37,201 nucleotides of DNA, from positions 1-37,201 of IMG/VR virus record IMGVR_UViG_3300020045_008319. One strand, given 5' to 3'. This document shows, in pieces, positions 5,889-30,406 of this stretch; positions within the stretch are counted from its first letter, which is position 1; each line of letters starts with the position of its first letter. The position numbers and the translations under genes are program-made. This DNA is from a virus. Taxonomy: Duplodnaviria; Caudoviricetes. A model generated the notes under the pieces. The model had not been told where the DNA came from, searched no databases, and was given only the letters and a program-made list of their open reading frames with translations.

Positions 5889-7214
5889 TTAATAACTCGA
5901 TGTATTATCATCAATAATATAAATATATATATGCTCATCATACGTTGTACTTTCTGGTTTTACCACCGTGGCAGCACCAGTTATAGTTAATCTATCGGGC
6001 GTTGATAATGGCGAGTTATAATCTGTTAATTTAGCAGCTGGTATTCTAATAAGAATCGAAAACGGAACTAAATTAGTACTATCAGCATAGTCGTTTGATT
6101 TCCAATACAGATAAAATCCAACGGGTGCGTCGGTTGTATAATTTGATCTTAAAGCATATTGTGTGCTTGTGTTGTTAGCTGTAAAGCTTAATTCAATAGT
6201 ACTGTTTTGTCTTTCCTGTTCCTTTTTATAATACGATCCTATATTTCTATTGTCATCAAGATTTGCATTTATAGTAATGGAATAATCTTTGACCTCATCT
6301 AATTCAGTTAACGCACCTGTTGAACTTTCCATTACAATTTTCATATTTGCAGCTAAATAAGCCTCAATAACTGGCGGAGTTAATGCGGAATCGGTTTTAC
6401 CAGTTTCTTCTGATTTACAATCAAGAGTTATAGTATATTTACAAATATCTTTCGCGGTATTTGATAAAGCAATTGTTGATATTTTAGCCCCTGTTGCCGC
6501 TATAGATTGATTAGCTCCCAACGCCCTGTTAAGAGTAAAACTAAATGACGGCAATGCCGTTGTTGCTCCTGCAGGTTCTAACAAATGAACCTTTGCCGTT
6601 GTACTTGATGGTTGAACTTTCATCAAATAACCGCCTATACTAACAGAAGCGGCTTTTAAATTGGTCGCTGAAAAATCTGCTATTGTAGAAGAATCAGTCG
6701 AATCTCCAAATACAATCGCGTCATATCCGTTTTTACTAGTAATTAATGTCGCCAGTTCAGTTAAAGTGTCAGCAGTGGAACTGCTAACATCTATAGTTCC
6801 AGTCGAAGAAAAATTTGAATCAATTACCCACGATGAACCATTGCCAGAAACTTGAGCCGTTAAAGTGTTACTTGATTTTGTTAATCTCATATAAGCGAAA
6901 CTTCCAGAATACCCAACTAACAACCAAGCTTTTATCGGGTTTGCTAAAGATGATTGATTCCCTAAAACACCATGTAAAAGTTTACCTATATCATCCCCAT
7001 GCATTACTCCCTCGACTGTCCCGCCTATTCCATCCCCAACTTTTATAAGATTCGTTGTATATATTTCAGATACTAGCGATGGGTCTTCTGCATGTTCAAC
7101 GCTTCGCTTTAAACTTTCTGTTGATACTCTAAGATAATCAGTTCCGCTTGCAAAACTACCCCACGTTGTCTCTTTTGCAAATACGACACTTCCTAATCTT
7201 CCTGTGCGTGCCAT
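5889..7214 (-). CDS. Major tail tube protein with internal Ser/Thr-rich insertion
   Basis: FAKETTWG N-terminus, LPSFSFTLNR and YSITINANL motifs of the phage tail tube family. Sits before the chaperones. No sheath gene is present. Confidence 0.8.
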   Translation of the reverse strand: MARTGRLGSVVFAKETTWGSFASGTDYLRVSTESLKRSVEHAEDPSLVSEIYTTNLIKVGDGIGGTVEGVMHGDDIGKLLHGVLGNQSSLANPIKAWLLVGYSGSFAYMRLTKSSNTLTAQVSGNGSSWVIDSNFSSTGTIDVSSSTADTLTELATLITSKNGYDAIVFGDSTDSSTIADFSATNLKAASVSIGGYLMKVQPSSTTAKVHLLEPAGATTALPSFSFTLNRALGANQSIAATGAKISTIALSNTAKDICKYTITLDCKSEETGKTDSALTPPVIEAYLAANMKIVMESSTGALTELDEVKDYSITINANLDDNRNIGSYYKKEQERQNSTIELSFTANNTSTQYALRSNYTTDAPVGFYLYWKSNDYADSTNLVPFSILIRIPAAKLTDYNSPLSTPDRLTITGAATVVKPESTTYDEHIYIYIIDDNTSSY

Positions 7215-8909: not shown

Positions 8910-9818
8910 TTAATTGTTAGTTTTTACTATTGAGAACGGGTTCAAGAAAGAATAACCCATTCTAAAATCAAAACCGTATTTGATCTCCTTAAATTCGATA
9001 TCATCTTTCATCATCCATTCAGGCTTTTTCCGTTCTTGAATTAAGAAAGGTTTAAACGGCGATGCGATATTAATCAAATACCAATCATTGTCTGTTGCTG
9101 CTTGTCGATAATTTACAATTATTTCAGCATCTCCAGAATAAAGGTTTGATTTTGTCCCAGAAACATAAATTAAACTTTGTCTGCTGGATAATAGCGTTGA
9201 AGCCACATCCTGCATGTGGAAAGGAACCAAAGCAACTAGTTTCATGCCCTCGTTGAAAGGTTCATCTTGCTTGTCCTTTAATCCGCCAAGAGCAATTTTA
9301 GCTGCTTTATAATCAGCTTCAAATTCAGTAAGCGAATAAGTAGAAGATGATGTACCAGTCAAAAGATTGTTAATAGTGTTTGATCCAGTGTCAATATTAG
9401 GTCTTGATGTTGCAAACATTGCTGTTCCGTCAAATGCCGTTGCGTTTGCATCTAACAAAAGCTGGCAAAGTTTAGCCGGAAAGCTTTGATACGCATTAAC
9501 AATAGATTTAACCCAGTTTTCTACGTCTCCGCCAAGGTATTCCCTGGAATCATTAATAGTATCTCTATCAACGCCAACACCAGAATCCCAAGATTTGTTT
9601 CGTACTGTTAAAACCTTATTAGAAAAATCTCCAAAATGCCTCTTGTCAAGCCATTCTTTAACGCCCGGAAGAGTTTCAGGAATATGATAGTCTTCTTTAT
9701 CGCTATTACTATTAACGCGATTAAGTATTTTCTCATATTCATTACTAGGAGATGTAGCCATGAGCTGATTAAAATTTCCTTTTATACCTTTCATTACTGC
9801 AATAGGTGAATTATACAT
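8910..9818 (-). CDS. Major capsid protein, Mu gpT-like
   Basis: LPGVKEW…LTVRNKSWDSGVGVDRDTIND, AFDGTAMFATS, DWYLI…KPFLIQERKKP and KYGFDFR match Mu-like major head subunit motifs. Confidence 0.9.
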   Translation of the reverse strand: MYNSPIAVMKGIKGNFNQLMATSPSNEYEKILNRVNSNSDKEDYHIPETLPGVKEWLDKRHFGDFSNKVLTVRNKSWDSGVGVDRDTINDSREYLGGDVENWVKSIVNAYQSFPAKLCQLLLDANATAFDGTAMFATSRPNIDTGSNTINNLLTGTSSSTYSLTEFEADYKAAKIALGGLKDKQDEPFNEGMKLVALVPFHMQDVASTLLSSRQSLIYVSGTKSNLYSGDAEIIVNYRQAATDNDWYLINIASPFKPFLIQERKKPEWMMKDDIEFKEIKYGFDFRMGYSFLNPFSIVKTNN

Positions 9819-9830
9819 AGTTACCTCCCC

Positions 9831-10676
9831 TTATTCCCAGAGCCTATAGACAATGCCATAGGTTCCTACTAAACCAGCCACCGTTGCAGATGCGGTTCCT
9901 GTTACATATTGCCCACTTGTTGCCTTAGCAATCCGGCCATTAGTTCCACCATTAACAACATTCGATAAAACCTTCGCCAAAGATGCGGTACAACCGTCAA
10001 TTAACAAATCGCTTGATGTGGTTCCATTTGCAGCCACACCAACGTCTAACGTAGCAGCGCCCGTTGATCCAGATGTAACATCAAGCAGCATCAATTCAAT
10101 CATTATGGTTTCACCTGTAGGGTTTGCCCATCTAATCACACCGCCAGCAGCAGTGGACGTTGCAGCAGTCAAATTTCCCTTATAAAGGATTGCCCCATTC
10201 GATTGATAAAACACATTCAAATCAACCCAACCGGAAGTAGCTGAAATATAAGTTACTAACGTTCCAACCTTAACACCGCCAGTCATTGATTCGTCTAAAG
10301 TGTAATTATCAGTAGCATAAACGACTTTTCCCAAATCGCTCTGTGCAATAGCTGTAAAAGCTAAAAGATACTGACCCTTTGTATAACAATATCTTACTGT
10401 TTTATCTCCTGCGATTGCAGAAGCAACTTCATTCGCACCGCTGATAGAACCGCTTGCAGTAGTAGCTGCGGGGCCTGAAGTATTTGCTGTTTCATCAGCA
10501 ACAACCACAATTATCCGAGCATCAATTGCTGCCGTTGAATCCATGTTATAAAGATATCCGTCAGCACCAACCGCCGCTAGAGTCCCTTTATATATTGTTT
10601 CGCCTGTTTTAACAGGAAAAGCGATCGGTTCGCCTTGACCTTTCATGTTTATAATTTGTTGTGCAGTTTTAGCCAT
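9831..10676 (-). CDS. Capsid cement/decoration protein with additional C-terminal beta domain
   Basis: FPVKTGETIYKGTLAAVGADGY and DLGKVVYATDNYTL…VKVGTL…GWVD resemble the head-decoration proteins found between Mu-like protease and capsid genes; about 120 aa of extra C-terminal sequence. Confidence 0.7.
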   Translation of the reverse strand: MAKTAQQIINMKGQGEPIAFPVKTGETIYKGTLAAVGADGYLYNMDSTAAIDARIIVVVADETANTSGPAATTASGSISGANEVASAIAGDKTVRYCYTKGQYLLAFTAIAQSDLGKVVYATDNYTLDESMTGGVKVGTLVTYISATSGWVDLNVFYQSNGAILYKGNLTAATSTAAGGVIRWANPTGETIMIELMLLDVTSGSTGAATLDVGVAANGTTSSDLLIDGCTASLAKVLSNVVNGGTNGRIAKATSGQYVTGTASATVAGLVGTYGIVYRLWE

Positions 10677-10685
10677 TTTTTCCTC

Positions 10686-11909
10686 CTATAAAACTTCTTT
10701 TTTGTAACGGTCTATATCATAAGCACCGTCAGGTCTTTTATAACCCATCTGATCCATTACATGATAATCAATGTTTTCAAGTTCAGTTTTGCTTTCAAGA
10801 TTAGTTCTAGTTAATTGTATCGAAGATTTCTTGGGTTTCATGGAAATCATTTTAACCACAAAATCTTTCGATCGATCATATTCAAGTTTCCAATCTTCAA
10901 CTTCTTTTGGATCAATCTGTCCATCTCTTGTTGCAGATTCAAAAAACCTTTCTTTTTCATCAATATGTTTTTCTTCTTCGATCTTGCTCAATTTTGCTTG
11001 AAATTCTTCAGCCTTCTGTTCTGCGACTTCTTTTTGACCAGTAAGTTCTTCCATTTTTGCTAACATTTCTTTCATCATAGCAATAATCTCATCCAAACCC
11101 GGCATTGCAGGGGCATCCTGTAATTTATGGTTTAATGATCCTTCGAACTTAGCCAATTTTTCTTTTACTTCTGACACTACCATATTTCCTCCTTTTATTT
11201 TTTCAAGACGAATTTGATCTTGTAATTTTGGATTTTCACCTTCGAGAGCTGGAATATTTGTAAGCGTTATCGCAAGCAAAACATTTTTATGTAACTCTTT
11301 TTCTGTATCAACCCTATCACCCCACTCTGGCGAAACATAACTATATATATTATCTTTTACTACTGTTTGACCTCTTGAGTTCAAATTAATTTTTGCATAA
11401 AGACCATCGTCTTTTTTATACAAATCTAATATATCGCCAAACTTTTCTCCTCGTTTATGTTGCTCATCAACAAATGGCTTAAAAAGCTTTTCGTTTTTAA
11501 AATTAGTTATTATTTGATCAAACATTGCGTCGTTTAATTCAAGATATTTCCCCTCATGATCTATATAAACTCTTTTTTTCGGGAAAACTTTTATTTCATA
11601 TTGTGTTGATTTGTCTAATTGATGAATCTGCAATTCAAACTTTGAAGATTCTCCAATAGTATCAAATATTTCTAGTATTTTATCGTCTGTTATACTAAAT
11701 CCATTTTTATCAAAAAGCTTTTTTATATCACTCATTACTTCTATCTTGCTTTTGGGTTTTCTCTCTTGTTCAATTGAGGTTGATTTTCTGAAATTTGTCA
11801 TGCAAATCGCTACTGCCTGTTCTTGATCTTTCCCCTCATTAATCATCATGGGAACACACTCTTTCATATACGTTGATTCATCTTTATTTCCTATTTCTGG
11901 CAATGGCAT
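10686..11909 (-). CDS. Mu gpI-like prohead protease/scaffold
   Basis: FVDEQH, GLYAKINLNSRG…YSYVSPEW and LLAITLTNIPAL are Mu-like protease motifs; C-terminal coiled-coil scaffold; GGAGG SD. Confidence 0.88.
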   Translation of the reverse strand: MPLPEIGNKDESTYMKECVPMMINEGKDQEQAVAICMTNFRKSTSIEQERKPKSKIEVMSDIKKLFDKNGFSITDDKILEIFDTIGESSKFELQIHQLDKSTQYEIKVFPKKRVYIDHEGKYLELNDAMFDQIITNFKNEKLFKPFVDEQHKRGEKFGDILDLYKKDDGLYAKINLNSRGQTVVKDNIYSYVSPEWGDRVDTEKELHKNVLLAITLTNIPALEGENPKLQDQIRLEKIKGGNMVVSEVKEKLAKFEGSLNHKLQDAPAMPGLDEIIAMMKEMLAKMEELTGQKEVAEQKAEEFQAKLSKIEEEKHIDEKERFFESATRDGQIDPKEVEDWKLEYDRSKDFVVKMISMKPKKSSIQLTRTNLESKTELENIDYHVMDQMGYKRPDGAYDIDRYKKEVL

Positions 11910-11921
11910 TTACATTCCTCC

Positions 11922-11954
11922 AAAAAAAAAGACCCAATTTTAAATTGGGCCTTT
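11922..11954 (-). terminator. Terminator-like hairpin with U9 tract directly upstream of the protease SD
   Basis: Minus strand reads AAAGG-CCCAATTT-A-AAATTGGG-TC-TTTTTTTTT-GGAGG…ATG. Confidence 0.6.
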
Positions 11955-12111
11955 AGGTACTCCAAGATATATTTTGATATATACAAATTTTTCCTGAATC
12001 AGGAATTTTTTTATTCCTATTATATTCCAACTTTATTTTAACATACGGAATCATATCGGTCAATATCAAACATTCTCTTTTTATTTTTTCTATTTGTTCT
12101 TGCGTTGTCAT
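11953..12111 (-). CDS. Small hypothetical protein (52 aa), not in ORF track
   Basis: ATG overlaps the portal stop (ATGA). Translation MTTQEQIEKIKRECLILTDMIPYVKIKLEYNRNKKIPDSGKICIYQNISWST. Fills the gap. Confidence 0.55.
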   Translation of the reverse strand: MTTQEQIEKIKRECLILTDMIPYVKIKLEYNRNKKIPDSGKICIYQNISWST

Positions 12112-14135
12112 TTTAAACTATATGCCATAAGCTGGCATCTGCAATTATCCCTTCCTAGACAATCGGGATTTACTGTTTTTTTACCAATATTAAGTCCTGC
12201 GTTTTCTATTTCTTCTTGTGTTAATATCAACCCATCTAAAGGTGCGCAATGATCGCAAAGGCTCCGATCCATTGCAGCGGTATAAAAATAAGTATTAATA
12301 TCATCTGATAAATCTAATAGAGTGGCTCCTCGTCCCTCGGTATAACCGTTTTCTATATCATTAACTATATTGTTTTTTTCACCCTTAAATCCGGTTTCAA
12401 ATCCAAGAATGAAATTCTCTAGGCCGCCTTTATTCTCTATGTATTGATCTGATACACCTTCCATTTTATTTTCTATCACGTTTTTTATTCTGAAAAAAAA
12501 GTTTTTAATGTTTTTTTCAACTGTCTTTCCTGTGTTTGGATTGGGCTGTATTGGTTTTTTTGCTAAAGCGATTGTTCCCTTTTGTAATTTAGCTATTTCT
12601 TTTTTTATATCTTTTACTCCGCGTTCAAAACCATTGTTATAAAGATCTAACATAGTTTTAGTAGCATCATTAATAATTCTATTTGATATTAATATATCTT
12701 TATTGCGGTTTGTTTTTAATTGATTATAAATTTCTAGTATAAACTCATGTGTAAAACTTTCAATTGTATTTTTTGCCTTATCAGAGATTGTTTCATAATG
12801 TTCATTAGCTGATTCGAGTTCAAAATGATTTGTTTCCCAGTCTAGTAAGTCTTGACTTAGTTTTCTAGTTTTATTTTTAGATAGTTTCTCTGTTATTTTA
12901 GGCGGTTCATTAACAATGACTTCTGGAATAACTACCTCTGGCATTCCAAAGATTTGCCGAAGAAACTTTTCATCATCTTTTGTATAATTTAAAAACCCGC
13001 TCTGGGCTAAAGCTGAAATCTGTTGTGCGGTTTTAGCCAAATCAATGCTTTTAATTGTATTAAACTTTATTAAAGGCCAATCCTCTTCTGTTATGTTTTT
13101 AAAAAATGACATCTCCATTGTTTTATCAATCATCTTTTGGATATTATCTTCTAACAACTGTAAAACATAACTAGCCATTAATTCGTATGAAGCCTTATGT
13201 TCTCCTGTTGATGACCTTGACCCGTTTTGACCAATGCCAGAAGTAATAAATTGTGTTAGTGTGTTATAAAACATTTGTCTATCAAAATAATCTACTAAAC
13301 CTATAACATCCTGTTGGTTCTTTAGCTCTAAAAGTTCAATCCTTGCCTTTTCTTCGTCAAGTAAGAAATATCCGTTTTGAACATTACTTAATGTCCGACC
13401 AAGAGTTTCCATTCTTACTTTATCTGCATTGCTTAATTGGCCCTTGCTATATACGCCTACAATTCCTGTGCCTCTTTGGGTTGCGATAGTTTTAGCATTT
13501 AAGACCTTATGTTTACAATCCCAAAAAAACCTAATAGTTCTGAATATTGATCGACCGCGAATATCATTAAACTCTTCTCCATAAGTAAAATAATCTAAAT
13601 TTTCTTTATCAATATTAATAAGAGTTTGTCCTTTTTCAGGCGTTCTTTTTGCGTGTTGAATACCAATAAAATCAGTGAAATCGTCATAATAAAATCTTTG
13701 TATTGTTTCATTTTGGATAGGATTAAACCAAATTGGCCTGTTTGTTGTTTTGCCATTATATTTATCGCCATATTTTACTATCATTTCATGCATTGATAAA
13801 CCATAATCAATTGCTAAAAGTTTATGGTGCTTGTAATAACCAAACCCCTTTTTCATATTATCAATAACCCAATAAACATAATCGCTGATTTCATTGTTCG
13901 GCGTTTCAATCCGATATTCTGACATTAAAATCGGATACTTTAATATATCAACTGTGCTAGAAGCCAAAGGATCGGAATTTCTGATTTTATAATAATCCGC
14001 TTGTAAATCTGTCCAGCTAATATTGTCAAAATCATTAGTCTTTATTTCACCTGCAGCAATCATAATTCCAGTGTTAGTTTCTTGTTCTTTTTTTATTGTT
14101 TGTTCGTCTGTTGGAACCTTTTTCTTTCTTCCCAT
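12108..14135 (-). CDS. Portal protein (DUF935/Mu gp29-like) fused to a MuF/SPP1 gp7-like minor head domain
   Basis: Portal motifs LLAIDYGLSMHE, RGRSIFR, GSRSSTGEH and EKFLRQIFGMP. C-terminal MuF-type YTAAMDRSLCDHCAPLDG…NPDCLGRDNCRC. Confidence 0.85.
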   Translation of the reverse strand: MGRKKKVPTDEQTIKKEQETNTGIMIAAGEIKTNDFDNISWTDLQADYYKIRNSDPLASSTVDILKYPILMSEYRIETPNNEISDYVYWVIDNMKKGFGYYKHHKLLAIDYGLSMHEMIVKYGDKYNGKTTNRPIWFNPIQNETIQRFYYDDFTDFIGIQHAKRTPEKGQTLINIDKENLDYFTYGEEFNDIRGRSIFRTIRFFWDCKHKVLNAKTIATQRGTGIVGVYSKGQLSNADKVRMETLGRTLSNVQNGYFLLDEEKARIELLELKNQQDVIGLVDYFDRQMFYNTLTQFITSGIGQNGSRSSTGEHKASYELMASYVLQLLEDNIQKMIDKTMEMSFFKNITEEDWPLIKFNTIKSIDLAKTAQQISALAQSGFLNYTKDDEKFLRQIFGMPEVVIPEVIVNEPPKITEKLSKNKTRKLSQDLLDWETNHFELESANEHYETISDKAKNTIESFTHEFILEIYNQLKTNRNKDILISNRIINDATKTMLDLYNNGFERGVKDIKKEIAKLQKGTIALAKKPIQPNPNTGKTVEKNIKNFFFRIKNVIENKMEGVSDQYIENKGGLENFILGFETGFKGEKNNIVNDIENGYTEGRGATLLDLSDDINTYFYTAAMDRSLCDHCAPLDGLILTQEEIENAGLNIGKKTVNPDCLGRDNCRCQLMAYSLK

Positions 14136-14968
14136 TATGCACCCCTATCTTCATTCCAATATTCGTTCTGTAACGCCCCGAAATATTGGAGATATTTTTC
14201 TTTTTGTTCTTTCGCAGTATTAAGGTTTTTATCTAAAACAGATTTGTCTTTTTCAAGCATCTTTAAAAGTTCGTTTTTATTAGTTCCTCTTTCAAAATGT
14301 GAATACATTTCTAACGCGCCTAAATATTTATTTATTTTTGCAGTAAGGTTTTCAATGTTATGAAATGAAATGTGCAATTGATTCCATAAATGCTTACGCC
14401 AAGATTTTATCTTATAAATATTAGGTCTCTCTTTATATCCATAAAGAATATCGCCAAAAAACAACTCGCAATCCTCGGGAAAATATACATTAATATTTTC
14501 TTTTTTACTTAACTTTTCAATCCAATACTCTATTCCTGGCCGTTCAAGGAAATATTCTTGCCCTGCGTTTAATAGGATTTTATAAAAATATATTTCTTTA
14601 TAGCCCATCATTGCGGCTAAAACAAACATGTAACAAAATGTCGATGTAAAAAATTCTACTCCGCCATATTCAACGACTTCTTTTAACGGAAATGTTTTTG
14701 CATTAGGAATGATTTGTTTAGTTAAACTATCATCAGCATTCTGAACATAAATAGGTATTTCACCAAAACGTTTAAAATCATAAGATTTATTATCAATAAT
14801 TGTTACTAGTTTTGTTGGCGGATGAATTTCAAACCCGAAATCCATTCTTTTAATATCGTCGTGAGCTTTTCCAAAACAAGAACCGCATCCCCATATTTCA
14901 TAATCGGGATCATCATAAGGAACATCAAATACACTTTCTGCAGTTCCTAACAAGATTAATTTTTTCAT
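14135..14968 (-). CDS. Putative nonulosonic acid (sialyl-type) transferase, CstII(GT42)/Maf-like fold
   Basis: N-terminal KKLILLGTAES parallels the KKVIIAGNGPS strand of CstII-type enzymes. TSTFCYMFVLAAMMGYKEIY parallels TSGVYMCAVAIALGYKEIY (compared from memory). Lies downstream of neuA. Confidence 0.55.
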   Translation of the reverse strand: MKKLILLGTAESVFDVPYDDPDYEIWGCGSCFGKAHDDIKRMDFGFEIHPPTKLVTIIDNKSYDFKRFGEIPIYVQNADDSLTKQIIPNAKTFPLKEVVEYGGVEFFTSTFCYMFVLAAMMGYKEIYFYKILLNAGQEYFLERPGIEYWIEKLSKKENINVYFPEDCELFFGDILYGYKERPNIYKIKSWRKHLWNQLHISFHNIENLTAKINKYLGALEMYSHFERGTNKNELLKMLEKDKSVLDKNLNTAKEQKEKYLQYFGALQNEYWNEDRGA

Positions 14969-15528
14969 TATTTTACCTCATACCAATTTATAACATAGCC
15001 TATAAAATTATTTGTAGTAACTTCGTTTAAAACTCTAATATTGTATTTTTTATTAGGCTTAAATTCGAACTCATTTAAAGCTCTTTCAGTTCCGCCTATG
15101 TTTCTACTCGATCCTAAATGCCTATCTAAAATTGTTGTTGCGCCTGATCTATTAATGTTGCCTGTTAAAGCCCCTTGGTAATTAATAACGTTCGATGTTT
15201 TTGTTGAATTTCTGTTGCGATTAATAGATGAAATCTGTGTCCCGGATAGAGACGCGGAAACTGTAATATCCTCATAAATAATATAACTGCATTCTGCTTC
15301 TGTATCTAAATCAAACAATAAGTGATGTTCGGTTTCTTCATTGGGCGTATGAATAATTATATTATGTGATGCTGAGTTTCCTAAATCAATTGTATTACTA
15401 CTAACATAACTATTGCCTTCGTGTATTTTATGATGTTCACCGTTAATAATAACCAATCCGTTTATATCGCTATCTACCGAAACACGGTGATTATATTTAT
15501 CAACAATTTCTACTATTTCGGTTGCCAT
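14968..15528 (-). CDS. Hypothetical beta-rich protein with EHHKIHEG motif
   Basis: Coupled by TAATG overlaps on both sides; no function recognised. Confidence 0.7.
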   Translation of the reverse strand: MATEIVEIVDKYNHRVSVDSDINGLVIINGEHHKIHEGNSYVSSNTIDLGNSASHNIIIHTPNEETEHHLLFDLDTEAECSYIIYEDITVSASLSGTQISSINRNRNSTKTSNVINYQGALTGNINRSGATTILDRHLGSSRNIGGTERALNEFEFKPNKKYNIRVLNEVTTNNFIGYVINWYEVK

Positions 15529-16079
15529 TACATGCCCCTTTGTGCTTTTATAAAATCATCTATTGTATCAATGTCAACGGAATTTGTATGATTCATTTTA
15601 TATTTTTTAACGTTATAATACAACCCGTATTTTTTATAATTATCTATCGAAGTATAATAAATAGCACCGTTTATTTTATCCGTGCGTTTATCGTAGGAAA
15701 TTATAGAGTTAATTGTTGGATCATAATTACTAATTACAGTTTTAATATCTGTTAATTCTCTAAGTGGACTTGTAACCTGTAATAACATTATATTATCACA
15801 ATCTGTATATTTGTCTAACACATCATCAATTACTTTTTCCATTGGAACTTCGTCTAAACATAACTCATTTTTTCTTTGAATAATATTAACTGGATAATTC
15901 TTAGATTTTTTTATGATAAAATTATCATCGGTTGTTACAACTATTCTTTTGAACTCTCTTGTTGCTACGGCCTGGCTTATTGTCCATTCAAATAAAGGGA
16001 ACCCTGCCAATAGTCTAGTATTCTTTCCTGGAAGTCTTTTTGAATTTTTTCTGGCCGGGATAATTGCCATGGTTTTCAT
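15528..16079 (-). CDS. neuA: CMP-nonulosonate synthetase (acylneuraminate cytidylyltransferase)
   Basis: IIPARKNSKRLPGKN, VVTTDD, LLQVTSPLR, NGAIY and SVDIDTIDDF motifs. Confidence 0.92.
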   Translation of the reverse strand: MKTMAIIPARKNSKRLPGKNTRLLAGFPLFEWTISQAVATREFKRIVVTTDDNFIIKKSKNYPVNIIQRKNELCLDEVPMEKVIDDVLDKYTDCDNIMLLQVTSPLRELTDIKTVISNYDPTINSIISYDKRTDKINGAIYYTSIDNYKKYGLYYNVKKYKMNHTNSVDIDTIDDFIKAQRGM

Positions 16080-17419
16080 TGATATTTTTTATCCTGTTTT
16101 AAGAATGTGTTATTATATATTTTTTTTATAAATCGGTCTATATTAACACTGACAATTATTTTTATAAAATTATTTAACCATTTATTTTGAACAAATAAAT
16201 TTAATAAATAAGACAACCGTATTATTTTCTTTTCATCTTTAAGTTTTATCTTAGTTCTTCCTGAGCGTTTATCAAAATCCTTTTGAAAAGTAGTCCCAAA
16301 ATCATCATCCATGTTTTGGAGCAACAACCTGTCTTTAGCATAGTTATAAACTTCGGTACCTTTAAACGGTTGTAATACACATGCCTTTGCAATTTCAGGT
16401 TCTATTTTCTGATTTAATTCTACCGTTTTTATTGCCGAGTTTAAATTCTCAAAAGGCAAACCAAATATATTTGTTGTTTGAACTCTTATACCATATTTTT
16501 TAAACCATTGCCCAGCATCAATCATTTGTTTATCTGTCATATTTCTGTTTAATATATTGTTGCGTATAAAAGAATCCCCATGCTCAACCCCGAAATCTAC
16601 TCTATTACAGCCTGTTTCAGACATTATTTTAACCAACTCTTCGTCCAATAAATTCACTCGCACATTACAAATATAAGGTTTATTAATTTCTTTCTTTATT
16701 CTTTGTATTAGAGTTATAAACCATTCCCTATTAAGATTCATTGTATCTGAAATAAATTGTAGCCATTTGAATCCGTACTTATCATTCAATTGTTTTATTT
16801 CATCCATTGCTTTATCTATATTCATATTTTGAATTATTGTCCCCTTTCCGTGATACATCTTATTTAATACCGGATTATAACAAAATGAACACTGAAAAGG
16901 GCATCCCCGGACAATATAAACTTGTTTTGTTGATTTGTTTTTTAAAAGACTATATTTATCATAATACAAATTATAATCAGGCATTGGGAGTTTGTTTATA
17001 TCAAATATGTTTCTTATTTCATTTTTAATTATTGTTTTACCAACTTTGAACCATAAGTTTTTTATATCCCGCCTTTTTGGTTCATTAACATATTCTAATA
17101 AAGCCTCATATCCTTCCCCAACACACAATATATCAACGTGTTGTATTACATCTTCTGGATTAAATGTCGCATGTGCGCCGCCAACGATTACCTTTTTCCC
17201 TACTGCTCTAACAGTTTTTATTATCTCAATGTCTTCTTTCCAAGATGGTGTTGAGCTTGAAAACGCATATAAATCCGCCTTGTCTTTAAGAATTTCTATA
17301 ATAGATTCTTTAGAATAAATAAATATATTGGTTATATGTCCTGCTTTTTTCAATAAAGCAGATAAATACATAATCCCAAACTGTTCCCTAAAAGACTGCT
17401 GTATAAAAGTTATCTTCAT
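16076..17419 (-). CDS. B12-binding domain radical SAM enzyme (class B methyltransferase-like)
   Basis: N-terminal GIMYLSALLKKAGH…GGAHATFNPE…VGEG cobalamin-binding domain; RGCPFQCSFC (CxxxCxxC); FGVEHG, IFGLP and PFKGT motifs. Confidence 0.92.
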   Translation of the reverse strand: MKITFIQQSFREQFGIMYLSALLKKAGHITNIFIYSKESIIEILKDKADLYAFSSSTPSWKEDIEIIKTVRAVGKKVIVGGAHATFNPEDVIQHVDILCVGEGYEALLEYVNEPKRRDIKNLWFKVGKTIIKNEIRNIFDINKLPMPDYNLYYDKYSLLKNKSTKQVYIVRGCPFQCSFCYNPVLNKMYHGKGTIIQNMNIDKAMDEIKQLNDKYGFKWLQFISDTMNLNREWFITLIQRIKKEINKPYICNVRVNLLDEELVKIMSETGCNRVDFGVEHGDSFIRNNILNRNMTDKQMIDAGQWFKKYGIRVQTTNIFGLPFENLNSAIKTVELNQKIEPEIAKACVLQPFKGTEVYNYAKDRLLLQNMDDDFGTTFQKDFDKRSGRTKIKLKDEKKIIRLSYLLNLFVQNKWLNNFIKIIVSVNIDRFIKKIYNNTFLKQDKKYQ

Positions 17420-18423
17420 AAAACCCTTGATAAAATATCAGCTATTTTTCTCGATACATATATAAGCTTTTTTGATTTATACCTTTTAGCTTTATTAACT
17501 GCTTTTATAATTGCTTCTTTTTCACATTTTATTGTCTTTGATCCTTCCCTTCCAGCTTGTCGTTCACCCACATTAATAAACGGAAGCCCAAAATATGGAG
17601 CTTCCATTACCCCAGCTGAACTATTCCCAATCATTAAATCTGCATGAAATAACAAGCTTGTCCAATCAACTAAATCTAACTCCCTTAGCTCTCCTAGTTT
17701 TGAAAACCTATCTATTAATTCTCTACTTCCTTTATCAATATTAGGGCGTATTATAACATATTGTAAAGCTAATTCCTTTAATGCATCGATTAATTCTTCT
17801 GGGTCTTCGTCTGATTTTGTGGCGGGATGATATAAAACAATGGCTGTTTTTTTATTTGTTTTAAGTTTTAATTCATTAAATAATTCGGTTTTATCTTTTA
17901 ATATAATTCTGTTTAATGTGTCAATTCTTGGAGAACCCACAACAAAAACATTCTTTTTAATACCAATTTGTTTAAGTCTTTTTTTTGCTTTGTTGGATAT
18001 AACAAAATGATATTGAGATGCCCGGCTTATCCAATCCCTAAATATATCGTCATAACTCCCATTGCTTATTTCGCCGCCGCCAAGATGAATTATTGGAATG
18101 TTTTGAATAACAGCATTGAAAACAGTTATTAAAATTTCCCATCGATCGCCTAAAACTATAATATAATCCGGGTTCATGTTTTCTAAATATGTTTTAATTT
18201 TATCATTGATTTCATTAAAACCATTTTTAAAGTTTATTTTTCTAAAATCTATGAATGTTATGTCGGGCATATATATTAAATCATCAAAATCAATCTTACG
18301 ATCTAAGTTCATAACCGTAAAATTAACTTTTAAATTCTCTTTTTTCTGGCATTCAAGGGCTAACATGTTTAACATGTGAACCTCAGCTCTGCTTCCAGAA
18401 ATAACTAAAATATTAACATCCAT
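17416..18423 (-). CDS. neuC: Hydrolysing UDP/GDP-N-acetylglucosamine 2-epimerase (NeuC/LegG-like)
   Basis: GSRAE, LGDRWE, HLGGGEISNGSYDD, VGSP, YHP, GNSSAG and NVGERQAGR motifs. Start moved to the ATG at 18423 (MDVNIL), which follows GAAGG. Confidence 0.9.
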   Translation of the reverse strand: MDVNILVISGSRAEVHMLNMLALECQKKENLKVNFTVMNLDRKIDFDDLIYMPDITFIDFRKINFKNGFNEINDKIKTYLENMNPDYIIVLGDRWEILITVFNAVIQNIPIIHLGGGEISNGSYDDIFRDWISRASQYHFVISNKAKKRLKQIGIKKNVFVVGSPRIDTLNRIILKDKTELFNELKLKTNKKTAIVLYHPATKSDEDPEELIDALKELALQYVIIRPNIDKGSRELIDRFSKLGELRELDLVDWTSLLFHADLMIGNSSAGVMEAPYFGLPFINVGERQAGREGSKTIKCEKEAIIKAVNKAKRYKSKKLIYVSRKIADILSRVL

Positions 18424-19111
18424 AATATAACCTTCTCGCTTTATCTGCATTATCACAAAACAAAGCAAATTGTTCTGGATTTAAAGACACTTTATTATCA
18501 ATACAATCTTCATCAATTTTAAAATGCTTTTCGATATATTGAATATTTTTAGAATAACACATTAAAGGAATTTCAATCCCTGTTTCAAGAGTATGATCTG
18601 ATAATCCAGAATAATCTGATAAATCGCAATATTTATAATCCTTTGTTTCTGCCGGATATTTACTGATACAATACATTTTATAAACATTATCTAAATCATA
18701 ATCAATACTATACATCCCATCCGAAACTAATACGGGTTTATTAAAAGATGCTGAGCAATACACTAAACTTTTATCATTTGCCCTATCAGAACCGATTTTA
18801 ATTACATCAGGATTATATTTAATTATTCTTAATAGTTTGTTTATTGTGGATGGTGTAATAATAAATTGGACCCCGTGTTTTCTGCATCTATCTTTTATTA
18901 AACCATAATCATCATCGTTTAATTCAAAAGAACGAATCTTATTAAACATTTCAACGTCATCTTTCCACCATGAACTATCAATTGTATTTATAGCATCCGT
19001 AACCTGAAACTTAACCGCCTTAGCCCCGGCCTCAACAGCAGCGTCTATCATTTCTAACGCTTTTAAAATATTACCATTATGATTTAATCCTATTTCTGCA
19101 ATTATTTTCAT
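18413..19111 (-). CDS. neuB: Nonulosonic acid synthase (NeuB/LegI/PseI family), lacking the C-terminal SAF domain
   Basis: IIAEIGLNHNG, AVKFQ, IKIGS, CISKYP, GLSDHT and IEKHF motifs. Confidence 0.92.
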   Translation of the reverse strand: MKIIAEIGLNHNGNILKALEMIDAAVEAGAKAVKFQVTDAINTIDSSWWKDDVEMFNKIRSFELNDDDYGLIKDRCRKHGVQFIITPSTINKLLRIIKYNPDVIKIGSDRANDKSLVYCSASFNKPVLVSDGMYSIDYDLDNVYKMYCISKYPAETKDYKYCDLSDYSGLSDHTLETGIEIPLMCYSKNIQYIEKHFKIDEDCIDNKVSLNPEQFALFCDNADKARRLYYGC

Positions 19112-19920
19112 ATAGCCCTCACTGTATCATATTTCATAAACATTTTATCCAATTCATAATTAGCATTTTTCTTTTTGTTTTTTTCACCATTTATGTTGTT
19201 TATCATTAATTTAATATGATCAATACCTGAATAATGAGCTGGCATATATCCACCGCCAAATCTAGGGTTTATATCTATTATCCAAGCCTTATCAGAAACA
19301 ATAAAATCAATATCAATATTGCCTTTAAATCCTTTCCACTGTAATATTTTTAATTGATCGTATATCGCTTCATCCCATCCGCTAATTGACCGTTCAGTTT
19401 CACCTGCTCGCATTAACAACTTCTTTTGCATGAATACTGAAATAAGGTCTTCAGTATAATAATCATAATATGCTTGAACATTCCATTCAGCCCCATCAAG
19501 TAAAGGTTGACGAATCTTTTCAAACCCTTTTCCGGCTGAACCACATCGGTCTTTTTGAATTGTAGTAGGACAAACCGTTAATTGATCATCAATATTTTGT
19601 GTTTTAGATTTATCGAAAGATTTTTCTATAGATTCATAATCTGATAAAAAAACCCGAATCCCATGGTTTAAAAACAAATTTCTGTCAATCGAAAGATTTA
19701 CTATCATTGGGTCTATAAGCGATGTTATCCATTTAATGTTATTAATCAAACAATAATTAAGTAATTCGACTACTTCATAAGTTTTGTGTGAAATAAAATT
19801 ATTCTTTGTTTCATACAAAGCTGGAGCGGAGATATCACAATCCGTTACATGTAAATTAGGATATAGTTTAATGATTTCTCTTATTAATTCTACCCGCCTT
19901 CCAACGCATGTAATTAACAT
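19108..19920 (-). CDS. ATP-grasp ligase (carbamoyl-phosphate-synthase-like family found in polysaccharide loci)
   Basis: LITCVGRRVEL…DISAPALY, DKSKT, GSAGKG, QPLLDGAEW, MRAGET and DINPRFGGGY motifs. Confidence 0.82.
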   Translation of the reverse strand: MLITCVGRRVELIREIIKLYPNLHVTDCDISAPALYETKNNFISHKTYEVVELLNYCLINNIKWITSLIDPMIVNLSIDRNLFLNHGIRVFLSDYESIEKSFDKSKTQNIDDQLTVCPTTIQKDRCGSAGKGFEKIRQPLLDGAEWNVQAYYDYYTEDLISVFMQKKLLMRAGETERSISGWDEAIYDQLKILQWKGFKGNIDIDFIVSDKAWIIDINPRFGGGYMPAHYSGIDHIKLMINNINGEKNKKKNANYELDKMFMKYDTVRAI

Positions 19921-21611: not shown

Positions 21612-22577
21612 TCACGCTATATAAAGATAATTTTTGTAATACCGAGATTTTGATAAATCCATCTTCGGGCAATATTGATACATTGGGAAATCAGAAACTA
21701 AGCCCCATATTGGTTGAAAAGAATTATTCTGTTTTTCGTCTATTATTCCAGTCCGCCAATAATTAGGTTTTGTATGTTTTCTAGTTGGAATAACTTCAAA
21801 TTCTTTAGAAAGTTTTCTATATTTATTATAACATAATTCTATATTTTTATTCAATTTTTTTAAGTTTTTTAATCCTAAAATAGCATTCCAGGCTGGCATC
21901 CTATAGTTAAATCCTATTTGATCATGATAATTTTGTTTTTGACTTTGGTCTTTTGCCGTCATAGATAAATGTTTTACATAATTATAATAATCTTTTGACC
22001 ATGTTAAAATAGCTCCGCCGCCGCCAGTAGTAAGTAATTTATTGCCATTAAAACTAATAATACCAAAATCTGAATGTGTCCCTACGTGCTGATTAAATCT
22101 ATAATTATCAGGTTTTTCTATGTAAGATCCAATGGCTTGAGCCGCGTCTTCAATAACTTTTAATCCCCAGTGTAAAGCAATTCGATTAATTTCTTCAATA
22201 TCAATAGGGTTTCCTAAAACATGAACCGCAACAATAGCAGATATTTTTCTGTTAGTTAATTTATTATAGACTATTCCATTTTCAATTTTACCGATATAAG
22301 ATAAATAATGTTCTAGTTTTTTAGTGTCTATCCCTAAACAATCATCACAATCAACAAAATGGGGTATGGCTCCAATATAAACTATAGGGTTAATTGTTCC
22401 AATAAAAGTTAATGCCGGAACTATAACCTCTTCATTTGGTTTTATACCTGAACAAATATACGACAAATGTAATGCAGATGTTCCTGTGTTAGTAGCAAGC
22501 ACATATTTTGATCCGGTTAATTCGCCTATTGCAATTTCAAACTCTTCTGTTTCTTTCCCACGATATGAATAATCCAT
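21612..22577 (-). CDS. legC: PLP-dependent sugar aminotransferase, DegT/DnrJ/EryC1/StrS family, LegC-like
   Basis: TGTSALHL, PALTFIGTIN, VHVLG, EDAAQAIGS, SFNGNKLLTTGGGGAI (catalytic Lys) and HLSMTAK…HDQIGFNYRMP, as in the LegC-type subfamily. Confidence 0.85.
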   Translation of the reverse strand: MDYSYRGKETEEFEIAIGELTGSKYVLATNTGTSALHLSYICSGIKPNEEVIVPALTFIGTINPIVYIGAIPHFVDCDDCLGIDTKKLEHYLSYIGKIENGIVYNKLTNRKISAIVAVHVLGNPIDIEEINRIALHWGLKVIEDAAQAIGSYIEKPDNYRFNQHVGTHSDFGIISFNGNKLLTTGGGGAILTWSKDYYNYVKHLSMTAKDQSQKQNYHDQIGFNYRMPAWNAILGLKNLKKLNKNIELCYNKYRKLSKEFEVIPTRKHTKPNYWRTGIIDEKQNNSFQPIWGLVSDFPMYQYCPKMDLSKSRYYKNYLYIA

Positions 22578-22670
22578 TTAACCCACCACTATTTTTGAAA
22601 GAAATTCTATGATTTGTCCTAATTCTATAATTATTATTATTAACGCTATTAACTGCAAAATTTTAATCAT
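22578..22670 (-). CDS. Small hydrophobic peptide (30 aa), not in ORF track
   Basis: MIKILQLIALIIIIIELGQIIEFLSKIVVG; ATGA overlap with the M23 gene, and its stop abuts the legC ATG. Confidence 0.55.
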   Translation of the reverse strand: MIKILQLIALIIIIIELGQIIEFLSKIVVG

Positions 22671-23323
22671 TTGTTATTTCCTAAAAATAGTTTTGGATTT
22701 TGGTAATTAGATATAATATTATTCCAAATAGCGAAATGTAAATGGTTACCTGTCGAATACTTCCCTGTTGAACCTACTCGCCCGATCAAGTCCCCACGCT
22801 TGACCGAGCAGTTAGGTTTGACCATAATTTGTGATAAGTGCCCATAAATGGTGCTGATCCATCCATGGTAAATCCTTATCGTTTTCCCCGTGTTAAAATA
22901 TTCTTTTGTTTCTTCTACGAATCCATCGGCAACCGCAAATACTGGAGTTCCCCTAGCGGCCGAAATGTCTAATCCTTCGTGGAAATCATTGATTTCACCG
23001 CCAACATCTTTCCCAAACGGCGAACATCTCAAACCCCATTGTGAAGTCTCTTTCCCTTTTATTATCGGGTATATCATTTCAATTTGTTTGTTTATTTTTT
23101 TGATGAGCTTCTTTTGGCTTGATAATAATTCCCAGTTTTTTGATGTGTCATAACCATAATAGGTTTTATAGTCATTCACTTGTTTTTGAAATTCCCTTTG
23201 CTTATATCTAATGGTGAAATAAATGGCACTAAAAACTATCACTAAAAATGTTATGATTAACATTCCCGTTAACACAATCATTTTTATTTTATCCTCGTTA
23301 AATTTCTTGGATCTCAATTCCAT
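22667..23323 (-). CDS. Membrane-anchored M23 family metallopeptidase
   Basis: N-terminal TM helix; HEGLD (HxxxD), YGHL, GSTG.STGNHLHF (HxH). Confidence 0.92.
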   Translation of the reverse strand: MELRSKKFNEDKIKMIVLTGMLIITFLVIVFSAIYFTIRYKQREFQKQVNDYKTYYGYDTSKNWELLSSQKKLIKKINKQIEMIYPIIKGKETSQWGLRCSPFGKDVGGEINDFHEGLDISAARGTPVFAVADGFVEETKEYFNTGKTIRIYHGWISTIYGHLSQIMVKPNCSVKRGDLIGRVGSTGKYSTGNHLHFAIWNNIISNYQNPKLFLGNNK

Positions 23324-24280: not shown

Positions 24281-24393
24281 TTTATTCCATCCTTTTTTTG
24301 TTTAGACCACATAAAACATCTAATTCCGTTTTGATTGTAAAATTTACAATGTTTAGATACCCACCATTCACATTTAGTGTTCCCACATTTCAT
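24277..24393 (-). CDS. Small Cys-rich hypothetical protein (38 aa), not in ORF track
   Basis: MKCGNTKCEWWVSKHCKFYNQNGIRCFMWSKQKKDGIK; ATGA overlaps at both ends. Confidence 0.55.
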   Translation of the reverse strand: MKCGNTKCEWWVSKHCKFYNQNGIRCFMWSKQKKDGIK

Positions 24394-24929
24394 TTTATTT
24401 CCTCCTTTTCCGAATGTAATTCCCAGGCATCTAGAATTAACTTCTTATATTTCTTCCAGAAATCCAATCCTTTTTTTTCATCCATTGATAGAATTTCTTT
24501 ATCACTAAAACTTTCCCATTCTTTTGCGGTATATTTTTTACATCCTATCTGTATATTTTTTTCAGTAATGAGTACAAAATATTCTAATCCTAATAATTGT
24601 ATTGGTATTTTTGATATTAATTCTCCATCAAGAGAAGCTCTATTAAGAGAAGCTCCATCAAGTGAAGCGCCAATAAGAAAAGCTCCATCAAGAGAAGCTC
24701 CATCAAGATTAGCTCCATAAAGATTAGTTCCATGAAGAGAAGCTCCATCAAGATGAACTCCATGAAGATTAGCTCCATGAAGAGAAGCTCCATTAAGATT
24801 AACTCCATCAAGAGAAGCTCTATAAAAATTAGTTGTATGAATATTTTTCTCAAGACAATCCTTTATAGATTCATATTCCCCACTAATAATAATCGCTCCA
24901 GTATCCCACCGTTTAATCTCTACTTTCAT
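24390..24929 (-). CDS. Pentapeptide repeat protein
   Basis: About 13 A(S/N)L(D/H/N)G repeats; C-terminal IQIGC…EW motif typical of phage pentapeptide-repeat proteins; AAGGAG SD. Confidence 0.9.
   Translation of the reverse strand: MKVEIKRWDTGAIIISGEYESIKDCLEKNIHTTNFYRASLDGVNLNGASLHGANLHGVHLDGASLHGTNLYGANLDGASLDGAFLIGASLDGASLNRASLDGELISKIPIQLLGLEYFVLITEKNIQIGCKKYTAKEWESFSDKEILSMDEKKGLDFWKKYKKLILDAWELHSEKEEIK
24622..24822. repeat. 15-bp-period tandem repeat encoding the pentapeptide repeats
   Basis: Recurring ctccatcaagagaag / ctccatgaagattag units. Confidence 0.85.
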
Positions 24930-30003: not shown

Positions 30004-30406
30004 CGAATATCTCAACTGGCACGCCCATCGTTCCCATGTGGTGCTTAACAGATTCAAAGTAATCCATAAATTCCAACTTACTTAGTTTGGTTGTTGACTT
30101 TGAACCCATTAAAGGCTTCACGCCTTTCTTACTGCGAATCATTATAATTTTCGGTAAGAACAAATGTTTCATTGCTTCGTGGAGTTCAGTCGCTGTGAGT
30201 GTTGGGTCGTCTGATTTCAGGTATGACACTGCAAACGTAAGGAAAAGCCAGTAGCAAGAATTTTGATTTAATGACCTGCCTTTCTGATTGTCATTCCAAA
30301 CTATTTTACAAATAGTGTTTTCTGGAATTTGTTTATTATCCAGAACAAGCCCACGGACAAACCCATTATCAAAGGTCATGACCTTAAAATCTACTGCCCT
30401 TTTCAT
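29978..30406 (-). CDS. NinB/Orf-like recombination accessory protein
   Basis: RSLNQNSCYW, ELHEAMKHLFL and KSTTKLSKLEFMDYFESV motifs. Confidence 0.75.
   Translation of the reverse strand: MKRAVDFKVMTFDNGFVRGLVLDNKQIPENTICKIVWNDNQKGRSLNQNSCYWLFLTFAVSYLKSDDPTLTATELHEAMKHLFLPKIIMIRSKKGVKPLMGSKSTTKLSKLEFMDYFESVKHHMGTMGVPVEIFDERYKELS

What the first reader, a model, noticed from the sequence alone, without database searches (positions are those of the whole stretch)
14135..14968. Unannotated protein looks like a CstII(GT42)/Maf-fold nonulosonate transferase, completing the pathway
Seen: an N-terminal Rossmann strand KKLILLGTAES…YEIWGC and a later TSTFCYMFVLAAMMGYKEIY. Established: Campylobacter CstII has KKVIIAGNGPS…TSGVYMCAVAIALGYKEIY, and Maf proteins with a related fold transfer pseudaminic/legionaminic acid to Ser/Thr of flagellin. 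Inference: this enzyme consumes the CMP-sugar made by the nearby NeuA. Its C-terminal coiled coil could target it to a virion substrate. The usual GxD after the motif reads KIL here, so it may be a divergent family.
Basis: partly seen in the sequence, partly recalled or inferred. Interest (0 to 1): 0.85.

Follow-up and report, generated by a model that had tools for sequence, protein, structure and literature searches.

The report
Phage enzyme sugar-coating its own particle
This phage gene encodes a protein with a predicted sialyltransferase-type fold, sits beside genes for making a sialic-acid-like sugar, and belongs to a large unnamed phage family that likely attaches such sugars to Ser-Thr sites on the outside of the virus particle.

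Summary
The ORF (14135-14968, minus strand, 277 aa) is real and lies in a complete 37-kb siphophage genome, between a LegC-like/NeuB/NeuC/NeuA cassette and the portal gene. A family profile hits CstII (E 1.6e-6). The model (pLDDT 94) matches CstII/CstI best, then Maf and MptE.

The family is large (1,690 representatives), almost wholly viral, and sits in head modules. A CMP-sugar synthetase occurs in 18 of 20 carrier records of 25 kb or more, against 0 of 28 matched non-carriers.

New here: in carrier phages the dipeptide Ser-Thr (not Thr-Ser) is enriched in exterior neck, tail and putative decoration proteins, in five capsid lineages. It is not enriched in portal, terminase or non-carriers. 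This points to Maf-like direct O-glycosylation of the virion at a short sequon.

Caveats: this protein belongs to a derived clade lacking the family's Gly-x-Asp. Its two nearest located relatives and the only cultured carrier show no synthetase. In this genome only the tail tube shows the Ser-Thr excess, and it is nominal. The cassette has no dehydratase, so the pathway is not complete. No activity is shown.

The parts
14135..14968 (-). GT42/Maf-fold predicted CMP-nonulosonate transferase: residues 1-180 Rossmann-like GT-A domain, 184-276 helical hairpin
14968..15528 (-). 186-aa protein of an unnamed viral family; its homologue follows the major capsid gene in sister phage L265, so probably a virion protein (inferred)
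15528..16079 (-). NeuA-like CMP-ulosonate synthetase, compact (183 aa)
   Evidence: PF02348 E 1.4e-17; R-x-x-S-K-R-x-x-x-K-N motif aligned
16076..17419 (-). B12-binding radical-SAM enzyme, predicted tailoring (methylation) of the sugar
   Evidence: PF04055 and PF02310; below every NCBIfam cut-off shown; role inferred
17416..18468 (-). NeuC/LegG-type hydrolysing nucleotide-sugar 2-epimerase
   Evidence: TIGR03568 246.5 bits, above cut-off 235.9
18413..19111 (-). NeuB-type nonulosonate synthase lacking the C-terminal domain (232 aa)
   Evidence: PF03102 E 1.2e-29; alignment
19108..19920 (-). ATP-grasp ligase, predicted to N-acylate the amino sugar in place of an acetyltransferase
   Evidence: PF21360, PF15632; PRK12767-like; role inferred
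21612..22577 (-). LegC-like PLP aminotransferase, upstream of the terminase genes
   Evidence: TIGR04181 309.6 bits, best hit but below cut-off 420; PseC 159 bits
19928..21605 (-). Terminase small and large subunits; the sugar cassette is inserted between TerL and the transferase-portal pair
   Evidence: sister phage L265 has TerL-transferase-portal directly
8910..14135 (-). Mu-like portal, protease, S/T-rich cement protein (9831-10676) and gpT-like major capsid protein
5889..7214 (-). Tail tube protein, 24% Ser+Thr with an inserted domain (about residues 93-206, 32% Ser+Thr); best candidate acceptor in this genome
   Evidence: PF18906; Foldseek P74-26 tube E 9e-15; 13 Ser-Thr vs 6.5 expected, 3 Thr-Ser; 9 of 13 in predicted loops

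Best explanation
The protein has a predicted CstII/Maf-type fold and likely transfers a phage-tailored, CMP-activated nine-carbon sugar directly onto serine/threonine residues of outward-facing virion proteins, most likely the tail tube in this phage. Steps: (1) Inferred: a host dehydratase supplies a 4-keto-6-deoxy HexNAc nucleotide. The phage LegC-like aminotransferase aminates it, the ATP-grasp enzyme acylates the amine, NeuC releases the sugar, NeuB condenses it with PEP, the radical-SAM enzyme may methylate it, and NeuA makes the CMP donor, probably a legionaminic-acid derivative. The gene families are shown; the order and product are inferred. (2) Inferred: the transferase is expressed with the head genes and acts in the cytoplasm like a flagellin Maf, with no priming glycan. 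(3) Inferred from sequence statistics: the family prefers Ser-Thr followed by a small residue, in loops and at C-termini of decoration, neck and tail proteins. (4) Speculative: the result is an acidic sugar coat on the particle that could change its stability, its adsorption to surfaces or its recognition.
For: Fold: profile to CstII E 1.6e-6; Foldseek CstII E 5.7e-7, all 16 hits at E<=0.001 ranking above Maf at rank 17, and the 14 of them listed are GT42 chains; VIA Z 10.9 to CstI over residues 1-171 and Z 10.9 to Maf. Active-site-like conservation: G8, H49, E138 and Y176 at 98%, R/K143, E147. Two homologues carry an intein between the GVDMA motif and the E-x-x-x-Q-R motif. Donor: PF02348 in 23 of 44 carrier records, 18 of 20 at >=25 kb, 5 of 5 complete ones; NeuB in 17 of 45. 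Of 48 terminase-selected controls one has PF02348, and it is itself a carrier, so 0 of 45 non-carriers; NeuB in 0 of 35. Acceptor: in most of the 80 viral loci the gene lies in the head module, usually beside the capsid or a small S/T-rich gene after it (map). Dereplicated exterior neck/tail proteins have Ser-Thr 161 vs 96.9 expected (1.66) in carriers and 50 vs 52.2 (0.96) in non-carriers; Thr-Ser is 1.09, and portal, terminase and HK97 capsid show no difference between the groups. Ser-Thr is the top dipeptide in S/T-rich carrier proteins (z 15.6; z -0.7 in non-carriers). Proteins ending in Ser-Thr: 35 of 1081 vs 3 of 1161. The excess recurs in five capsid lineages (1.40-1.58) and in 22 of 33 homologue pairs, with 6 lower and 5 tied. 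No GT2 or GT1/GT4-type priming transferase over cut-off in 23 carrier records, this genome included.
Against: No activity is shown. The co-occurrence and Ser-Thr statistics come from loci fetched with patterns of the canonical subfamily (N109 in 98 and D132 in 90 of 111 proteins). This protein is in a derived clade (SH-aLRT 99, quick tree) with K130 and L132, so it lacks the Asp that, by spacing only, matches the essential CbMaf D357. It has no conserved His to match CstII H188. The two nearest relatives with context (L265, 31.9 kb; L267, 20.9 kb; both linear) have the transferase but no NeuA or NeuB. The only cultured carrier (PP496355.1, complete) has no PF02348 and no Ser-Thr excess (22 vs 23.8). 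In this genome S/T-rich proteins give only 34 vs 27.9. The excess is all in the tube (nominal p 0.016), which would not survive correction for about 12 virion proteins, and the L265 tube has 6 vs 5.6. In homologue pairs Thr-Ser also rises (19 higher, 8 lower, p 0.052), so part of the effect is general S/T richness. Records are related to one another, so the p-values are overstated.
Confidence: 0.62

Rival explanations
1. It is a CstII-like capping enzyme that adds the nonulosonate to an existing glycan (host LPS, capsule, S-layer glycan, or a host-primed glycan on the virion), for example to mask the phage receptor.
For: The closest solved relatives are GT42 glycan sialyltransferases, ahead of Maf. 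Carriers without the Ser-Thr excess exist (29% of 65 carrier loci at or below 1.3).
Against: The genes are embedded among packaging and head genes. No priming transferase was found in 23 records. The CstII base H188 has no counterpart (PMC4202792 passages). A glycan acceptor would not explain an order-specific Ser-Thr excess in exterior virion proteins.
Confidence: 0.17
2. The family glycosylates virions, but this derived K130/L132 clade has changed donor or chemistry, or is a non-catalytic assembly or virion protein, and the neighbouring sugar cassette serves something else.
For: L132 in all 19 near homologues and K130 in 17 of 19. L265 and L267 have no NeuA/NeuB in the sequence held. The Ser-Thr signal in this genome is weak.
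Against: The clade keeps G8, E47, H49, E138, Y139, E142, R143, E147 and Y176 invariant at 32-65% identity. No other transferase was found in the genome to use CMP-sugar. The cassette has inserted next to this gene.
Confidence: 0.12
3. It is an MptE/thiamine-pyrophosphokinase-like enzyme of the same fold, or it sugars a modified DNA base.
For: HPPK 8sd5 scores Z 10.1 and Foldseek E 0.021; 3 of 150 members give weak MptE-like hits. A sister fragment without the gene (L266) has 7-deazaguanine genes near the terminase, so this region takes DNA-modification cassettes.
Against: Only GT42 scores significantly by profile. The co-occurrence is with CMP-sugar synthetases. The Ser-Thr signature is on proteins.
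Confidence: 0.05

Closest known systems
Campylobacter CstII/CstI and Pasteurella sialyltransferases (CAZy GT42; PDB 1ro7, 1ro8, 2p56, 9c08)
   Same: Rossmann-like GT-A core; G8 loop, the (T/S)-S...Y-M...A...G-Y-K-E-I helix-strand and, in most of the family, G-x-D.
   Different: No His188 base; His at the N51 column; own E-Y-x-x-(Q/E)-R-P-x-x-E motif; long C-terminal helical hairpin; only weak Pfam CST-I similarity (1 of 150 members, E 0.002); the predicted acceptor is protein, not galactose.
Maf flagellin nonulosonate transferases (PF01973 domain; PDB 5mu5)
   Same: Same fold class (Z 10.9); GT domain followed by a helical domain; cytoplasmic; linked to NeuB/NeuA cassettes. Acid-Ser-Asp spacing 62/23 in CbMaf matches positions 47/109/132 (spacing only, not an alignment).
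   Different: 277 vs 632 aa, no N-terminal domain; viral; below Pfam MptE-like significance (best E 0.017). Maf has no known sequon (PMC11339370 passages), whereas this family shows a Ser-Thr preference. The predicted substrate is the virion, not flagellin.
Mycobacteriophage virion glycosylation (Freeman et al. 2023; seen only through passages of PMC12619734 and PMC11256854)
   Same: Phage-encoded transferases glycosylate capsid and tail-tube subunits, reported at their C-termini, forming a shield.
   Different: Here one sialyltransferase-fold enzyme comes with its own nonulosonate pathway, in many unrelated uncultured phage lineages. That the mycobacteriophage glycans use other enzymes and hexose-type sugars is recalled, not read.
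Legionaminic-acid pathway (LegB/C/H/G/I/F; names recalled)
   Same: LegC-like aminotransferase, hydrolysing epimerase, synthase and CMP synthetase are present.
   Different: No dehydratase or acetyltransferase found; ATP-grasp and B12 radical-SAM genes added; enzymes are shortened.

Membership tests
GT42 (CstII-type) | CstII-like GT-A fold | tested here: met
   Foldseek E 5.7e-7, probability 1.00, TM about 0.4; VIA Z 10.9, 161 aligned, rmsd 3.9; profile E 1.6e-6
GT42 (CstII-type) | Score above the Pfam CST-I (PF06002) threshold | tested here: not met
   No hit for this protein; 1 of 150 members at E 0.002
GT42 (CstII-type) | Catalytic His188 in the lid | tested here: not met
   No column from 132 to 229 has His in more than 15% of 169 sequences; H188 role from PMC4202792. 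Sequence test only, no superposition available
GT42 (CstII-type) | G-x-D after the core helix (CstII G152, D154) | tested here: not met
   K130-I-L132 in this protein; met by most of the wider family (G 83%, D 41% of 169; G 107, D 90 of 111)
GT42 (CstII-type) | Transfers Neu5Ac to Gal or sialyl acceptors | not testable with these tools
   Needs an assay
Maf flagellin transferases | Central PF01973 domain | tested here: inconclusive
   Structural match to 5mu5 (Foldseek E 0.019; Z 10.9 with rmsd 15.9); Pfam only 3 of 150 members, best E 0.017
Maf flagellin transferases | Essential acid, Ser and Asp/Asn (CbMaf D272, S334, D357) | tested here: inconclusive
   By spacing E47, S109 and L132 here, so the third is missing in this protein and D/N in most relatives; the paper's supplementary alignment could not be seen
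Maf flagellin transferases | Three domains, about 600 aa, encoded in a flagellar locus | tested here: not met
   277 aa, in a phage head module
Maf flagellin transferases | Direct transfer to protein Ser/Thr | not testable with these tools
   Indirect support only
Complete legionaminic-acid pathway | 4,6-dehydratase and N-acetyltransferase present | tested here: not met
   PF02719 and PF01370 absent; no acetyltransferase among 50 window proteins scanned

The most novel reading that the evidence does not exclude
A widespread, unnamed class of uncultured tailed phages coats its particles with self-made sialic-acid-like sugars. They use a minimal one-enzyme transferase that reads a Ser-Thr sequon, and the sequon has been written independently into the exterior proteins of at least five capsid lineages. 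It would be a phage-encoded nonulosonate virion-glycosylation system, and a sequon-directed protein sialyltransferase, that my literature searches did not find described.
Probability: 0.5. Interest if true: 0.9.

Novelty: new variant of a known kind. Interest (0 to 1): 0.8.

Why it matters
Phage particles are generally thought to be unglycosylated, with mycobacteriophages the reported exception. This family suggests sialic-type virion glycosylation in many environmental phages that are nearly absent from culture collections: 1 carrier in 50,697 phage records, against 526 confirmed stretches in a partial scan of the viral contigs. It would explain neuA/neuB genes in viral contigs as virion-building genes rather than host-metabolism genes. 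A 280-aa transferase with a two-residue sequon would be a simpler tool for site-directed protein sialylation than Maf, for which no sequon is known. The acceptor sites are predicted here, so the idea is directly testable.

Tried and rejected
Single-sequence searches of Pfam, PHROGs and NCBIfam gave nothing, and the PDB search only a weak SinR hit. The top VIA rows are generic coiled coils matching residues 175-277 and were not used. A reciprocal scan of viral contigs from NeuA could not be run because the alignment had no usable pattern, so how many NeuA-bearing phages carry the transferase is open; one 5.9-kb control fragment (L124) has NeuA and NeuB without it. Complex prediction of the transferase with tube residues 88-215 gave no verdict. 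No sequencing run was listed. A search for longer, fused forms gave 3 proteins, none fused to NeuA: two with inteins and one with a GT2 domain. The HK97-type major capsid protein as acceptor is not supported (0.97 vs 0.97). The Microcystis phage annotation 'type 11 methyltransferase' on its homologue is probably carried over from fused forms (atlas cluster; inferred). Bacterial contamination is rejected: the record has a 121-nt terminal repeat and the cassette lies between TerL and portal. Of 22 genome-collection hits most are short contigs in assembled genomes; L105 is an integrated prophage-like locus. The host was not identified. The careful tree did not finish; the quick tree was used. Literature: 10 searches listed no paper whose title or abstract opening describes nonulosonate glycosylation of phage virions or this family; several returned more papers than were listed (30 of 51, 30 of 887, 30 of 257, 12 of 17, 18 of 20) and subscription papers are not held.
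Full report
Observation. The ORF and all quoted motifs are present. The window is a whole virus record with direct terminal repeats (121 nt). It has Mu-like head genes and a siphovirus-type tail. In transcription order on the minus strand: LegC-like aminotransferase, TerS, TerL, ATP-grasp, NeuB, NeuC, B12 radical-SAM, NeuA, a 186-aa unknown, the target, portal, protease, cement, major capsid.

Family and fold. The protein has 20 close homologues and 1,690 representatives at E<=0.001 among 1.84 billion; its nearest atlas clusters are unnamed and 94-100% viral. A profile of 150 sequences finds CstII at E 1.6e-6, and GT42 enzymes fill the first 9 rows. The AlphaFold model (pLDDT 93.7) gives CstII at E 5.7e-7, then Maf 5mu5 (0.019), thiamine pyrophosphokinase and HPPK (0.021). 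VIA gives CstI Z 10.9 (161 aligned, rmsd 3.9), Maf Z 10.9 (rmsd 15.9) and HPPK Z 10.1. The fold therefore places it in the GT42/Maf/MptE group, closest to GT42, but does not by itself fix the chemistry.

Residues. In the alignment G8 matches CstII G8, H49 (98%) matches N51, and 130/132 match G152/D154. Reading without gaps from the Y-M anchor, S109/T110 match T131/S132 (my reading; HMMER opens a gap there). The family adds E138 (98%), Y139, Q/E142, R143, E147 and Y176, and has no conserved His downstream. So the CstII base H188 (PMC4202792, passages read) is replaced; E138 is the likeliest substitute (inference). CbMaf needs D272, S334 and D357 (bioRxiv 10.1101/2020.06.03.131540, passages and section 12 read). 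The same 62/23 spacing gives E47, S109 and position 132, which is Asp in most relatives but Leu here. That paper's supplementary alignment could not be seen and bears on this mapping. Two homologues have inteins in the loop between GVDMA and the E-x-x-x-Q-R motif; inteins favour conserved active-site motifs (own knowledge). The K/L form is one well-supported clade of 20 among 79 rows (SH-aLRT 99, quick tree, midpoint root).

Donor. I fetched the best 80 of 526 confirmed viral stretches using the canonical subfamily and searched the whole records behind 43 longer ones plus L001. PF02348 was in 23 of 44, in 18 of 20 records of at least 25 kb, and in 5 of 5 complete ones. NeuB was in 17 of 45. 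As control I took 48 of 160 terminase-selected loci, chosen as records of 15 kb or more not already in the carrier set. One had PF02348, and it is one of 3 carriers among them. NeuB was in 0 of the 35 searched. For records of at least 25 kb this is 19 of 21 vs 0 of 28 (Fisher p 1e-11, not corrected for kinship). That count left out L265's record and the cultured phage, both carriers without PF02348; with them and this genome it is 20 of 24. In one related group of about ten loci NeuA directly precedes the transferase; other loci carry PseB-, PseC/DegT-, NeuC-, transketolase- or SDR-type genes, so the sugar varies. Among 50,697 named phage records, NeuA hit 2 and NeuB hit 1.

This genome's sugar. 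The aminotransferase is nearer LegC than PseC, and the epimerase passes the hydrolysing NeuC cut-off, which suggests a legionaminic-type product (inference). The dehydratase is missing and must come from the host. Sister phage L265 has TerL-transferase-portal with no cassette; L267 and L083 also have the transferase directly before the portal. So the transferase is the older resident and the cassette a later insertion (inference). L265 and L267 show no NeuA or NeuB and would need a host donor or genes in missing sequence.

Acceptor. Across the loci the gene sits in the head module, most often after a small S/T-rich gene that follows the capsid gene. Comparing homologous proteins of carriers and non-carriers showed more Ser-Thr dipeptides in tube, adaptor, terminator and closure proteins. 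Because those clusters were picked after seeing the data, I repeated the test three ways. (a) All six exterior clusters, dereplicated at 50%: 161 vs 96.9 expected in 73 carrier proteins and 50 vs 52.2 in 61 non-carrier proteins; Thr-Ser 1.09; no difference for portal, terminase or HK97 capsid. (b) All ORFs binned by S+T content, with no cluster choice: O/E 1.39-1.60 in the three S/T-rich bins of carriers vs 0.67-0.99; Ser-Thr the top dipeptide (z 15.6); per-locus median 1.61 (n 65) vs 0.94 (n 18); C-terminal Ser-Thr 35 of 1081 vs 3 of 1161; Gly or Ala favoured after it. (c) 33 disjoint homologue pairs: 22 higher, 6 lower, 5 tied (p 0.004), with Thr-Ser 19 vs 8 (p 0.052) and internal proteins 9 vs 13; O/E 1.40-1.58 in five capsid lineages. 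Carrier loci are centred on the transferase and controls on TerL, which affects (b) but not (a) or (c). No GT2 or GT1/GT4-type transferase passed cut-off in 23 carrier records (one sub-threshold GT2 hit), favouring direct transfer to protein.

Limits for this protein. Here the excess is confined to the tube: 13 vs 6.5, with 3 Thr-Ser; 9 of 13 in predicted loops (loops are 49% of residues) and 5 in an inserted domain. It is nominal only (p 0.016). The 44 tube homologues give 289 vs 237 expected and 178 Thr-Ser, but they are related and their carrier status is mostly unknown. The cultured carrier shows neither NeuA nor the signature, so the family is not uniform.

Comparison and novelty. It works most plausibly like a Maf (PMC4065374, PMC11339370 and bioRxiv 10.64898/2026.09.01.748753, passages read) but is a member of neither GT42 nor Maf by their defining features. 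Virion glycosylation is reported for mycobacteriophages (Freeman 2023, not held; seen through passages of PMC12619734, PMC12582341 and PMC11256854). Ten searches listed no description of this family or of nonulosonate-coated phage virions (listings only).

Verdict. My estimates: fold about 0.97, CMP-ulosonate donor about 0.85, direct virion-protein acceptor for this enzyme about 0.62. Novelty: new variant of a known kind; interest 0.8.

Noticed in passing
window 14968-15528 (-): His-rich 186-aa protein of an unnamed viral family, structurally near DUF6143; its homologue sits after the capsid gene in L265 and near decoration genes in L022.
   Followed up: partly
L266:429-3352: Sister-phage fragment without the transferase carries QueD, QueC and FolE plus an unknown 412-aa gene just before TerS: a 7-deazaguanine DNA-modification cassette in the slot where the window has the LegC-like gene.
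   Followed up: partly
P0214, P0215, P0216: Two family members carry inteins (LAGLIDADG hit in P0214) in the predicted active-site loop; one is fused to a GT2 domain.
   Followed up: partly
PP496355.1 34781-35584 (L002:11908-12711): Only cultured carrier found, Microcystis phage Mvi-Yong1342-1; gene annotated 'type 11 methyltransferase', just before TerS; no CMP synthetase in the genome.
   Followed up: yes
L037, L041, L048, L049, L063: Cassette of NeuB, SDR, NeuA, transketolase-like and FkbM methyltransferase genes (not all five in each locus) just before the portal, suggesting an unusual branched or methylated ulosonate.
   Followed up: no
L105:5785-11005: Prophage-like locus in a 3.27-Mb Dehalococcoidia contig with FkbM-like, NeuB, NeuA and the transferase.
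   Followed up: partly
L224 (G077): Two copies of the transferase family in one 24-kb record.
   Followed up: no
L005:4854-6110; L009:1275-1982: ORFs in carrier loci, upstream of the capsid genes, with ADP-ribosyltransferase (PF03496) hits.
   Followed up: no
window 24390-24929 (-): Pentapeptide-repeat protein with a 15-nt tandem period.
   Followed up: no
window 28753-30057 (-); 22667-23323 (-): C5 cytosine methyltransferase, and an M23 peptidase as probable lysin; no integrase seen among 50 proteins scanned.
   Followed up: no
window 18413-19111, 15528-16079, 21612-22577 (-): The phage NeuB, NeuA and LegC-like enzymes are shorter than their family models; NeuB lacks the C-terminal domain kept by the six other viral NeuB aligned.
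   Followed up: partly
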